Made by a program: the position numbers and the translations under genes. From a virus, in IMG/VR virus record IMGVR_UViG_3300027532_000102, positions 1 to 6,576 of that record: a stretch of DNA of 6,576 bases. One strand, written 5' to 3'. Below, piece by piece: positions 1,683-2,165 of the stretch; within the stretch, counting starts at the first letter, position 1, and each line of letters opens with the position of its first letter. The notes under the pieces were generated by a model. The model worked only from the letters and a program-made list of their open reading frames with translations, did no database searches and was not told the DNA's origin.

Positions 1683-2165
1683 GTGGACGTGATGACGATG
1701 ATGCGCAATGGCGCGATGGTGCTCTCGAACCTCGGCAAGAAGCATACGGCCGCCCACGCGGCGGCGGGCTTCTCGGCCGAAGAATGGGAGCTCCTGACGA
1801 AGGTCGAGCCGTGGACTGCCGAGGAACGGCGCGGTGTCCGCTCGGTTCTGGCCGAAGCGGTGAACGTCACGATGGCGATTGCCGGACTCCCCGCCGAACC
1901 TCTGCCGGGCCAGTACGTGGCTGCGGTGATTTCCACTCTCATCCATCCGGTGAACCGCCACGTTGCGGCGATTCGTGCCCCGGAGACGTATGACGCGGTG
2001 GCGGCTTCCGGTCTGGTCGGTTCGTCCGAAATCGTCCCGATGACCCCGCAGCAGATGGTGGGTCTCGTGATGGCGTACTCGGGCGGTGCCCGTGCCCCGG
2101 ACATCCGGCCCACGTGGACGGACCTGTACGGCGACGAGACCGAGCGGGCCGACGGTAAGGAGTGA
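1683..2165 (+). CDS. External scaffolding protein, phiX174 gpD-like, 160 aa
   Basis: GGAGG at 1671-1675 is followed by 7 nt and then GTG 1683, 4 nt after the rep stop. ATG 1692 is an alternative start. QYVAAVISTLIHPVNRHVA (1911-1967) matches phiX174 gpD EFIAAVIAYYVHPVNIQTA (recalled) at about 11 of 19 positions. FSAEEWELLTKVEPW resembles LTEDDFDFLTSNKVW. The size (160 aa vs 152 aa) and the position between rep and the capsid gene also match gpD. Confidence 0.75.
   Translation: MDVMTMMRNGAMVLSNLGKKHTAAHAAAGFSAEEWELLTKVEPWTAEERRGVRSVLAEAVNVTMAIAGLPAEPLPGQYVAAVISTLIHPVNRHVAAIRAPETYDAVAASGLVGSSEIVPMTPQQMVGLVMAYSGGARAPDIRPTWTDLYGDETERADGKE

What the first reader, a model, noticed from the sequence alone, without database searches (positions are those of the whole stretch)
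1683..2165. gpD-type external scaffolding protein and a full phiX174-type gene order in a GC-rich genome
The local match YVAAVISTLIHPVN versus FIAAVIAYYVHPVN of phiX174 gpD, together with the size and position, indicates an external scaffolding protein. As far as I know this is a hallmark of the enterobacterial phiX174-like Bullavirinae and is absent from gokushoviruses. The A(B)-D-F-G-H synteny and the compact capsid protein (441 aa, no large gokushovirus-type insertion) agree. The genome is roughly 60 percent GC by hand estimate, versus about 45 percent for phiX174. It also lacks C, K, E and J equivalents and carries extra genes. It therefore looks like a deeply divergent, undescribed lineage with a two-scaffold assembly pathway, presumably in a GC-rich diderm host.
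Basis: partly seen in the sequence, partly recalled or inferred. Interest (0 to 1): 0.65.

Follow-up and report, generated by a model that had tools for sequence, protein, structure and literature searches.

The report
GC-rich phiX174-like phage with external scaffold
The window is the complete 6.4-kb circular genome of a small single-stranded-DNA phage whose gene at 1683-2165 is a true relative of the phiX174 external scaffolding protein; such proteins are already known outside the E. coli phages, so this is a new deep branch of a known group, with an unusual backward-facing regulatory gene cassette as a bonus.

Summary
ORF 1683-2165 (160 aa) is a gpD homologue. It passes Pfam's gpD cut-off. 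Its family profile hits phiX174 gpD in the PDB (E 8.6e-10). Its AlphaFold model matches only phiX174 gpD chains.

The window is a circular 6,449-nt genome of 61.1% GC. Its gene order is Rep(B-like overprint)-D-F-G-H, and its capsid protein is compact (441 aa).

External scaffolds are already documented in pequenoviruses, Ciona-gut microviruses and a Vibrio phage ("Family 1/Suborder I", Kirchberger 2022), so gpD is not an enterobacterial hallmark.

What is new is the lineage. F and Rep trees make the window and about 40 metagenomic relatives a monophyletic clade (100% bootstrap). That clade lies outside Bullavirinae plus pequenoviruses (85-91%). Curated Family 1 genomes span 31-54% GC. About 57 of the top 150 gpD clusters in public data belong to this clade.

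No C, K, E or J equivalents were detected. No host link was found.

Side finding: a conserved antisense cassette encodes a bZIP-like DNA-binding protein, and TTACGTAA palindromes are enriched next to it.

Verdict: new member of a known kind; moderate interest.

The parts
1..127 (.). Terminal direct repeat, identical to 6450-6576. It is an assembly overlap showing a circular 6,449-nt genome.
   Evidence: The same genome was recovered on other contigs.
99..371 (+). Small lipoprotein-like accessory gene with a signal peptide, lipobox-like MTSC and a coiled-coil tail. It may act in lysis or superinfection exclusion (inferred).
   Evidence: GC3 0.75 and GC2 0.31 look coding. Homologues sit upstream of Rep in L021 (lipobox LVSC, E 2.6e-8) and L022 (VSVSC, E 1.5e-5).
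368..1678 (+). Rep, a phiX174 A-type rolling-circle initiator. It has an HUH motif (HHHIHALLF) and a two-tyrosine motif (GGYLSKYQQK). The true start may be the ATG at 416.
   Evidence: phrog_713 2.3e-22 and PF23343 above its cut-off. Motifs compared with phiX A (HFHAVHF, GFYVAKYVNK). Gene call with the 416 start.
1189..1581 (+). B-like ORF (130 aa) overprinted in the +2 frame of the 3' part of Rep. It is the candidate internal scaffolding protein.
   Evidence: It uses the same relative frame as B in phiX174, alpha3, G4 and PG19. Its stop lies 97 nt before the Rep stop (85 nt in phiX). A +2 open run of 105-194 codons occurs in all 35 Family-1-type genomes examined, including 124 codons in a 31%-GC genome. 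The C-terminus DAxER..W...DGF...L...PPRxxR[IV]L-stop is conserved in 13 genomes. There is no sequence similarity to Bullavirinae B.
1683..2165 (+). gpD-type external scaffolding protein (160 aa). This is the finding.
2230..3555 (+). F-type major capsid protein (441 aa) without a gokushovirus-type insertion. A GGAG Shine-Dalgarno lies upstream.
   Evidence: Phage_F 3.2e-14 and phrog_514 4.6e-24. Full-length tblastn to Bullavirinae and pequenovirus F. Sequence.
3555..4565 (+). Spike protein (336 aa). The C-terminal domain of about 160-190 aa is G-like. The N-terminal extension of about 150 aa is specific to the GC-rich subclade and may be an added receptor-binding module (inferred).
   Evidence: hhalign of the clade alignment against the G alignment of Bullavirinae plus pequenoviruses: prob 94.5%, E 7.8e-8, residues 177-326 versus phiX G 27-167. 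Lower-GC relatives carry a 152-182-aa version.
4586..5377 (+). H-position protein (263 aa). It is the candidate DNA pilot, with a Gly/Ala-rich N-terminus, a coiled-coil middle, a hydrophobic segment and a basic tail.
   Evidence: Assigned by position and composition. Only weak profile similarity to H: 65% prob over 24 columns. The upstream in-frame extension has GC3 0.47, so the start is at 4586.
5407..5428 (.). Perfect 9-bp GC-rich hairpin, GGGGGCTCC-AATC-GGAGCCCCC, at the convergent junction of the sense and antisense genes.
5431..5438 (.). TTACGTAA palindrome 3 nt past the stop of the bZIP-like gene. A second copy lies at 5571-5578.
   Evidence: 2 copies against 0.02 expected; 0 of 200 shuffles reached 2. 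L021 has its single copy overlapping its bZIP gene's stop.
5441..5701 (-). Antisense bZIP-like DNA-binding protein (86 aa) with basic region EKRRQQNREAQRRYRQK and an L42/L49/M56/L63/M70 zipper.
   Evidence: Pfam bZIP_1 23.9 bits, below the cut-off of 27.6. Its L021 counterpart scores 31.3 bits, above the cut-off. The basic regions are 65% identical. Best PDB matches are bZIP domains. GC3 0.69 and GC2 0.38.
5571..5960 (-). Antisense middle gene; the true start is probably internal. It is homologous to 58-84-aa antisense genes of relatives.
   Evidence: Pairwise E 2.8e-6 to L021 3554-3730(-) and a weaker match to L022 4389-4643(-).
5986..6162 (-). First gene of the antisense operon (58 aa).
   Evidence: GC3 0.84 and GC2 0.34. 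Called as a gene on independent contigs. Weak similarity to L021 3727-3912(-).

Best explanation
The window is the complete circular genome (6,449 nt, 61% GC) of a microvirus. It belongs to a previously unnamed, deep lineage of the gpD-bearing microviruses (Suborder I / 'Family 1' of Kirchberger et al. 2022).

ORF 1683-2165 encodes a homologue of the phiX174 external scaffolding protein D. By analogy with the phiX174 pathway, the following steps are expected (established for phiX174, inferred here):
- F pentamers and G-type spike pentamers are joined with the help of an internal scaffold, the B-like protein overprinted in Rep.
- Many copies of D form an outer lattice that holds twelve such units in a procapsid.
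- Rep-driven rolling-circle synthesis fills the procapsid with ssDNA.
- D then falls off the mature virion.

Shown here: homology and fold of D, homology of F and Rep, profile-level homology of the G domain, the conserved geometry and C-terminus of the B-like overprint, and the phylogenetic position.

Inferred: the assembly role, the stoichiometry and the release of D.

The lineage differs from phiX174 in five ways:
- D abuts F, with no J gene between them.
- No C, K or E equivalents are detected.
- The spike carries an extra N-terminal domain of about 150 aa.
- A lipoprotein-like gene precedes Rep.
- A three-gene antisense cassette is present.
For: D identity:
- Pfam gpD above the gathering score.
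- PDB profile hit to 1AL0/1CD3/1TX9 at E 8.6e-10.
- AF2 pLDDT 81.5 with Foldseek hits only to gpD chains, prob 1.00.
- W44 and N91 are invariant across the window clade, pequenoviruses and Bullavirinae.

Context:
- Rep has HUH and YxxKY motifs.
- F is full-length homologous to Bullavirinae F.
- G domain: hhalign 94.5% probability, E 7.8e-8.
- The B-like +2-frame ORF is conserved in all 35 genomes checked, with a conserved C-terminus in 13.

Circularity and independent recovery.

Phylogeny (NJ, 200 bootstraps):
- Window clade: 100% for F, Rep and D.
- GC-rich subclade: 83-91%.
- Bullavirinae + PG19 + pequenovirus-like, excluding the window clade: 91% (F) and 85% (Rep).

Literature: the external scaffold and spike are the stated hallmarks of Suborder I (PMC9239249).
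Against: - Sequence similarity to phiX174 D is confined to residues about 27-97. The C-terminal third of the model is low-confidence.
- The phiX174 helix-3 glycine G61 is V in this clade. From my own knowledge, G61 is needed for D's conformational switching. The details of lattice formation may therefore differ.
- No J or C equivalents were found, although phiX174 needs both for packaging.
- H is assigned essentially by position.
- The trees are distance-based, use two outgroup taxa, and have highly saturated distances.
- No virion or procapsid data exist for any member of this clade or of the pequenoviruses.
Confidence: 0.8

Rival explanations
1. The protein is a true gpD homologue but does not act as a transient external scaffold. 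It would instead stay on the virion as a cement, decoration or minor capsid protein.
For: Depositors annotated most pequenovirus homologues as 'putative minor capsid protein'. G61 is not conserved. Some relatives have Lys-rich C-terminal tails on D. J is absent, so some other protein must neutralise the DNA.
Against: Those annotations are automatic labels, not experiments. The fold, size, position and co-occurrence with the F, G and B-like genes all match the scaffold system. No known gpD homologue is a virion component (established for phiX174, alpha3 and G4).
Confidence: 0.1
2. The genome is an ordinary member of the already described pequenovirus group (or of Bullavirinae), and the apparent separate clade is an artefact of distance trees and GC-driven amino-acid bias.
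For: The best tblastn hits for D, F and Rep are pequenoviruses. NJ on saturated distances can misplace long branches. High GC skews amino-acid composition.
Against: F identity to every pequenovirus and Bullavirinae is only 21-25%, against 39-58% within the clade. The clade also contains members of 46-52% GC, so GC bias does not define it. Three proteins give 100% support for the clade. Support for grouping it with the pequenovirus-like sequences is 2-6%. The clade has its own synapomorphies: D abuts F, a distinct B C-terminal motif, and G's S[VI]QRLVG motif.
Confidence: 0.1
3. The window is not a free phage genome. It would be a prophage, a chimeric assembly, or a fragment of a GC-rich bacterial chromosome.
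For: The high GC and the lower-GC (55%) antisense region could suggest a mosaic.
Against: There is an exact 127-nt terminal overlap. The same genome occurs on independent contigs of the same size. The antisense cassette and lipoprotein gene are conserved in relatives at the same position. Relatives occur only on genome-length contigs or on head-to-tail concatemers. No copy was found in 185,579 species genomes.
Confidence: 0.03

Closest known systems
phiX174 / alpha3 / G4 external scaffolding protein D (Pfam PF02925; PDB 1AL0, 1CD3, 1TX9), subfamily Bullavirinae
   Same: All-alpha fold, size of about 150-160 aa, gene position between Rep and F, and the conserved core W..(R)..P.P..[YF].AAVI...V.P.N. 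It co-occurs with compact F, a G spike, H, and a B gene overprinted in the +2 frame of Rep.
   Different: About 30% identity over 70 residues only. G61 is replaced by V. D abuts F with no J. No C, K, E or A*-type features were detected. GC is 61% against 44-46%. The spike is twice as long. Antisense genes are present. F is only about 22% identical.
Eel River basin pequenoviruses (KP087943-51, NC_026665; Bryson et al. 2015) and pequenovirus-like MAGs from Ciona gut (MH572352, MH572489) and Manatee Spring (MW202618)
   Same: These are environmental, uncultured microviruses with the order Rep-D-F-G-H and a gpD homologue. They are the best database hits for D (about 31%, E 1e-9), F and Rep. They are already recognised as having an external scaffold and as sister to Bullavirinae.
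   Different: F is only 21-25% identical. The trees place the pequenovirus-like genomes with Bullavirinae, to the exclusion of the window clade (85-91%). Pequenoviruses have 100-600 nt, sometimes with small ORFs, between D and F. Their G is about 200 aa. GC is 31-54%. No antisense cassette is annotated.
Vibrio phage vB_VpaM_PG19 (OM055665)
   Same: A cultured non-enterobacterial microvirus with annotated internal and external scaffolding proteins. It shows that the two-scaffold system is not confined to Enterobacteriaceae.
   Different: It groups with Bullavirinae (95-100% support), has 41% GC, and carries a J-sized ORF between D and F.
Eukaryotic bZIP transcription factors of the Pap1/Yap type (Pfam PF00170), compared with the antisense gene only
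   Same: The basic-region signature N-x2-AQ-x2-[FY]R-x-[KR] is present. The relative L021 has the canonical N-x7-R-x9-L-x6-L spacing and passes Pfam's cut-off. The TTACGTAA palindrome is enriched in both genomes; from my memory this is the classical site for this bZIP class.
   Different: It is encoded by a bacteriophage on the antisense strand and is only 86-108 aa. The window's copy has a shifted zipper register and falls below Pfam's cut-off. No other homologues were found.

Membership tests
gpD external scaffolding protein family (Pfam PF02925) | Sequence match to the family HMM above the curated gathering score | tested here: met
   32.2 bits against 25, E 1.2e-7. The family profile hits PDB gpD at E 8.6e-10.
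gpD external scaffolding protein family (Pfam PF02925) | All-alpha gpD fold | tested here: met
   AF2 model pLDDT 81.5 with 9 helices. The Foldseek top 7 are all phiX174 gpD chains, prob 1.00, TM 0.49-0.70, and nothing else is below E 1.
gpD external scaffolding protein family (Pfam PF02925) | Gene of about 150 aa located between the Rep (A) and capsid (F) genes of a microvirus | tested here: met
   160 aa at 1683-2165, between Rep (stop 1678) and F (start 2230).
gpD external scaffolding protein family (Pfam PF02925) | Forms a 240-copy outer lattice on the procapsid and is absent from the mature virion | not testable with these tools
   Needs particles. No multimer modelling was available.
gpD external scaffolding protein family (Pfam PF02925) | Helix-3 glycine (phiX174 G61) that allows conformational switching. 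This is a functional feature of the phiX174 protein and does not define the family. | tested here: not met
   The aligned residue is V in the window and V/I/C in its clade. Only 4 of 8 pequenovirus-like sequences keep G.
Suborder I / 'Family 1' microviruses (Kirchberger et al. 2022) | External scaffolding protein present | tested here: met
   The hallmark is stated in PMC9239249.
Suborder I / 'Family 1' microviruses (Kirchberger et al. 2022) | Separate G-type spike protein | tested here: met
   hhalign prob 94.5%, E 7.8e-8 over 146 columns to the G alignment. There is no direct Pfam hit.
Suborder I / 'Family 1' microviruses (Kirchberger et al. 2022) | [quoted passage not shown] | tested here: inconclusive
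   Only Family 1 members are hit by F, D and Rep. NJ trees put the clade as sister to all known members rather than within them. The MOP-UP network analysis was not run.
Subfamily Bullavirinae (ICTV) | Full gene set A/A*, B, C, D, E, F, G, H, J, K with close capsid relatedness to phiX174, alpha3 or G4 | tested here: not met
   No ORF is possible for C (4-nt Rep-D gap) or J (64-nt D-F gap). The ORF overprinted in D has no transmembrane segment, so it is not E-like. F is about 22% identical. The clade lies outside Bullavirinae in the trees.
Subfamily Bullavirinae (ICTV) | Enterobacterial (gammaproteobacterial) host | not testable with these tools
   No prophage or host-linked contig was found.
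Pequenovirus (proposed) | Capsid and Rep group with the Eel River basin sequences | tested here: not met
   Support for window clade + pequenovirus-like is 2% (F) and 6% (Rep). Support for pequenovirus-like + Bullavirinae is 91% and 85%.
Gokushovirinae | VP1 with a large insertion loop ('mushroom'), and no D and no G | tested here: not met
   F is 441 aa against 533-565 aa. D and G homologues are present.
bZIP_1 (PF00170), for the antisense gene 5441-5701 | HMM score above the gathering cut-off and canonical basic-region-to-zipper spacing | tested here: inconclusive
   Window protein: 23.9 bits, below 27.6, with the zipper register shifted. L021 counterpart: 31.3 bits, above 27.6, with N-x7-R-x9-L-x6-L spacing.

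The most novel reading that the evidence does not exclude
The window represents a third, earliest-branching lineage of two-scaffold microviruses, alongside Bullavirinae and pequenoviruses. Its GC-rich branch has acquired a genetic-switch-like module that is unprecedented for Microviridae. The module is an antisense operon whose last gene encodes a bona fide bZIP-type dimeric DNA-binding protein. That protein would recognise TTACGTAA operators placed at the convergent gene junction and upstream of the operon. The result would be regulated expression (carrier-state or temperate-like) in a family thought to be strictly unidirectionally transcribed and lytic. It would also be a rare case of a bZIP domain in a bacterial virus.
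Probability: 0.3. Interest if true: 0.7.

Novelty: new member of a known kind. Interest (0 to 1): 0.42.

Why it matters
The external scaffold of phiX174 is a textbook model of assisted capsid assembly, yet it has been studied only in a handful of closely related coliphages.

This genome and its relatives make up about 57 of the best 150 gpD clusters in public data. They show that the two-scaffold design is old and widespread, and that it tolerates large changes:
- no J or C genes,
- a missing switch glycine,
- a doubled spike,
- 61% GC.

This gives natural variants for testing which features of D, B, F and G are essential.

The result also adds a probable subfamily-level branch to microvirus taxonomy.

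The antisense bZIP-like cassette, if functional, would change the view that microvirus genomes are transcribed from one strand only. It would also provide a prokaryotic-virus example of a DNA-binding fold regarded as eukaryotic.

Tried and rejected
- DNA-level search of the whole window against 50,697 phage records found no match.
- Two prophage and host searches in 185,579 species genomes, using F and D profiles, found nothing.
- A metagenome scan found only short or genome-length contigs, with no host flanks.
- The long contigs carrying D homologues (22.5 kb and 19 kb) turned out to be head-to-tail concatemers, not prophages.
- Word-based homologue searches for the 336-aa spike and for the bZIP-like protein returned only the query itself.
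The single-sequence model was unusable at pLDDT 33.7, so no fold search was run on it.
- Profile comparison of H gave only a 24-column match at 65% probability.
- Pfam gave nothing for the B-like ORF, the spike or H.
- Rfam gave no hit.
- The sigma-70 and terminator scan of the accessory region found no promoter-like site, and 2 terminator-like sites (both inside the antisense coding region) against 1.2 expected by chance.
- Searches for the sample identifiers in the literature were uninformative.
- The in-frame upstream extensions of D (1590-1682) and H (4253-4585) were rejected as non-coding on GC3 (0.52 and 0.47) and because homologues start at the shorter site.
- The basic in-frame extension upstream of F (2086-2229) has no counterpart in relatives and was not adopted.
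- The 'Protaetiibacter' and 'Mycolicibacterium' phage records among the tblastn hits were not followed. I suspect phiX174 contamination but did not check.
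Full report
**What is in the window**

The first 127 bases are identical to the last 127. The window is therefore a circularly closed assembly of a 6,449-nt genome.

The spike protein's exact sequence is on three contigs and that of the bZIP-like protein on six, and D's on two contigs from separate public datasets, a Logan assembly of SRR8092710 and ENA ERZ27241796.

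On the + strand the genes are:
- a small lipoprotein-like gene (99-371);
- Rep (368 or 416-1678);
- an ORF overprinted in Rep (1189-1581);
- the ORF of the finding (1683-2165);
- F (2230-3555);
- a 336-aa gene (3555-4565);
- a 263-aa gene (4586-5377).

From 5441 to 6162 the coding strand switches to minus.

**Checking the observation**

The ORF at 1683-2165 begins with GTG, 7 nt after a GGAGG, and immediately follows the Rep stop codon. All homologues begin at the same place with MD(V/I)(M/H).

- It matches Pfam gpD above the curated cut-off: 32.2 bits against 25, E 1.2e-7.
- It matches PHROG 1386 'head morphogenesis' at 3.3e-17.
- A profile built from 32 homologues hits only gpD in the PDB sequence set (1AL0/1CD3/1M0F and 1TX9). 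The E-value is 8.6e-10, and residues 27-97 align collinearly to gpD 26-96.
- An AlphaFold2 model from that alignment is confident over the core (mean pLDDT 81.5, pTM 0.74) and all-helical.
- A Foldseek search of the PDB returns seven phiX174 gpD chains as the top hits (probability 1.00, TM 0.49-0.70). The next hit is at E 1.5.

**The rest of the 'phiX174-type gene order'**

*F.* F is full-length homologous to Bullavirinae and pequenovirus F, with 92-98% coverage, 21-25% identity and E down to 1e-22. At 441 aa it lacks the gokushovirus insertion; phiMH2K VP1 is 533 aa and Chp2 VP1 is 565 aa.

*Rep.* Rep carries the HUH motif and the two-tyrosine motif of phiX174 protein A.

*The 336-aa protein.* It has no direct family hit. 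Lower-GC relatives carry a 152-182-aa protein at this position. The clade alignment aligns to a G alignment (Bullavirinae plus pequenovirus-like) with 94.5% probability and E 7.8e-8 over 146 columns. This covers window residues 177-326 against phiX174 G 27-167. It is therefore a G-type spike with an extra N-terminal part of about 150 aa, found only in the GC-rich subclade.

*The 263-aa protein.* It is H-like by position and composition only.

*The B-like ORF (1189-1581).*
- It lies in the +2 frame of Rep, as B does in phiX174, alpha3, G4 and PG19.
- It stops 97 nt before the Rep stop; in phiX174 the distance is 85 nt.
- All 35 genomes examined have a +2 open run of 105-194 codons. These are 22 from the window clade, 9 pequenovirus-like and 4 Bullavirinae/PG19. 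A 31%-GC pequenovirus has 124 codons open in +2 against 16 in +1.
- In 13 genomes of the clade the ORF ends in the motif DAxER..W...DGF...L...PPRxxR(I/V)L-stop.

This is good evidence for a conserved overprinted gene in the place of the internal scaffold. It has no sequence similarity to Bullavirinae B.

*C, K, E and J.* No equivalents were detected.
- The Rep-D gap is 4 nt and the D-F gap is 64 nt.
- In relatives D and F abut or overlap.
- The ORF overprinted in D has no hydrophobic segment.

'Absent' is therefore a statement about syntenic positions, not proof of absence.

**Relatives and phylogenetic position**

There is no DNA-level match to any of 50,697 phage records.

D has 45 homologues at 45-66% identity in the 5.8-billion-protein set. 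Nearly all are on contigs of 5-6.7 kb. Two longer contigs are head-to-tail concatemers. IMG/VR holds 17 relatives, and a metagenome scan found 20 more.

The closest relatives (L001, L003, L021, L022/23) are also about 60% GC. The IMG/VR relatives are 46-52% GC.

Neighbour-joining trees with 200 bootstraps give the following:

| Grouping | F | Rep | D |
|---|---|---|---|
| Window clade | 100% | 100% | 100% |
| GC-rich subclade | 83% | 91% | 85% |
| Bullavirinae + PG19 + pequenovirus-like, excluding the window clade | 91% | 85% | no outgroup |
| Window clade + pequenovirus-like | 2% | 6% | not tested |

These are distance trees on saturated data with two gokushovirus outgroups. The branching order should be rechecked with ML.

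**What was already known**

Kirchberger et al. (2022, PMC9239249) define Suborder I / Family 1 as Bullavirinae, Klebsiella prophages and pequenovirus MAGs. They name the spike and the external scaffolding protein as its hallmarks.

Creasy et al. (2018, PMC6116155) state that the pequenovirus-like Ciona genomes have an external scaffolding protein.

GenBank records annotate one in KP087943, MH572352, MH572489 and Vibrio phage PG19.

The non-Bullavirinae Family 1 genomes in that paper's Table S1 span 31-54% GC. None resembles this clade. I found no paper describing such a lineage.

A full HMMER census with the D profile finds 565 clusters at 50% identity with E at or below 1e-3, of which 139 are at or below 1e-10. 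Of the best 150:
- 57 are closest to the window's D;
- 86 are closest to pequenovirus-like D;
- 7 are closest to Bullavirinae or PG19.

The lineage is thus well sampled in raw public data but apparently unnamed.

**Host**

- No copy was found in one genome each of 185,579 bacterial and archaeal species, using either F or D patterns.
- No related contig carries host flanks.
- Shine-Dalgarno sequences and a lipoprotein-type signal peptide fit a bacterial host but do not identify it.
- The 'GC-rich diderm' idea remains untested.

**Mechanism**

The best-supported reading is a phiX174-like two-scaffold pathway. D is the transient outer lattice, the B-like protein is the internal scaffold, and F, G and H are the structural proteins.

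Homology is shown here. The roles are inferred from the phiX174 system.

Points that may make the mechanism differ:
- The phiX174 G61 position is valine here.
- Sequence conservation with phiX174 D is confined to the central 70 residues.
- J and C are missing.
- The spike has an added domain.

**Noticed in passing: the antisense cassette**

Codon-position GC supports minus-strand genes at 5986-6162 (GC3 0.84) and 5441-5701 (GC3 0.69). Independent gene calls agree.

The cassette is conserved in L021, as three minus-strand genes at the same place, and in part in L022:
- the middle gene is homologous, with pairwise E 2.8e-6;
- the first gene is weakly homologous.

The last gene encodes an 86-aa protein with the basic region EKRRQQNREAQRRYRQK and a heptad zipper.
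- It scores 23.9 bits on Pfam bZIP_1, below the cut-off of 27.6.
- Its L021 counterpart scores 31.3 bits, above the cut-off, and has the canonical N-x7-R-x9-L-x6-L spacing.
- The two basic regions are 65% identical.
- The best PDB matches are bZIP domains, though not significantly.

The palindrome TTACGTAA is enriched.
- It occurs twice in the window, at 5431-5438 (3 nt past the bZIP stop) and at 5571-5578. The expectation is 0.02, and 0 of 200 shuffles reached two.
- It occurs once in L021, overlapping that genome's bZIP stop codon, with an expectation of 0.00.
- One-mismatch sites number 7 against 0.72 expected. They include TTACATAA upstream of the antisense operon.
- From my own knowledge, TTACGTAA is the classical target of Pap1/Yap- and PAR-type bZIPs, whose basic regions carry the same NxxAQxx(F/Y)R signature.

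This looks like a real DNA-binding regulator with cognate sites. Both that and antisense genes would be unusual for a microvirus. It deserves separate follow-up.

**Verdict**

The biological kind, a microvirus with an external scaffold outside the enterobacterial phages, is already known. The window adds a new, deep and apparently undescribed lineage with several architectural differences. Interest is moderate. The antisense bZIP-like module is the most surprising element.

Noticed in passing
window 5441-6162 (minus strand); L021 3231-3912 (minus strand): A conserved three-gene antisense operon sits in a family whose genomes are normally transcribed from one strand only. Its last gene (5441-5701) encodes a bZIP-like protein. 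The L021 counterpart passes Pfam's bZIP_1 cut-off and has canonical basic-region-to-zipper spacing.
   Followed up: partly
window 5431-5438 and 5571-5578; L021 3231-3238: The TTACGTAA palindrome is a classical bZIP target (from my memory). It occurs twice in the window against 0.02 expected, and once in L021 against 0.00 expected. In each genome a copy lies at the 3' end of the bZIP-like gene. One-mismatch variants number 7 against 0.72 expected, including TTACATAA at 6216-6223 upstream of the antisense operon.
   Followed up: partly
window 5407-5428: A perfect 9-bp GC-rich hairpin, GGGGGCTCC-AATC-GGAGCCCCC, lies between the convergent H and bZIP-like genes. A T-run precedes it on the + strand. 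It could be a bidirectional terminator or an ssDNA structural element.
   Followed up: no
window 99-371 (+); L021 4245-4499; L022 5067-5399: A conserved small gene upstream of Rep has a signal peptide, a lipobox-like cysteine (MTSC / LVSC / VSVSC) and a coiled-coil tail. It is a candidate lysis or exclusion lipoprotein in a genome with no E-type lysis gene.
   Followed up: partly
window 3555-3995 (N-terminal ~150 aa of the spike): The G-type spike carries an N-terminal extension found only in the GC-rich subclade. In L022 the linker is a GDGDGD... low-complexity run. It may be an added receptor-binding domain. The single-sequence structure model failed.
   Followed up: partly
L001 and L002 (22.5-kb contig), L003 (19-kb contig): Long-read-style contigs hold 3-4 head-to-tail copies of a microvirus genome of about 5.87 kb. 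One unit in L003 has a fused or variant Rep gene (440 aa instead of 264+178). This could reflect rolling-circle concatemers or an assembly artefact.
   Followed up: no
all Family-1-type genomes examined (L024-L034, L037, and the window clade): An open run of 105-194 codons in the +2 frame of Rep is universal across Bullavirinae, pequenovirus-like genomes and the window clade. This suggests that the B overprint predates the split of all three lineages, although the B sequences themselves are unalignable between lineages.
   Followed up: partly
tblastn summaries: Records named 'Protaetiibacter' phage and 'Mycolicibacterium' phage (Actinobacteria hosts) appear among the hits for D, F and Rep. They are probably phiX174 spike-in contamination of those records, but this was not checked.
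   Followed up: no
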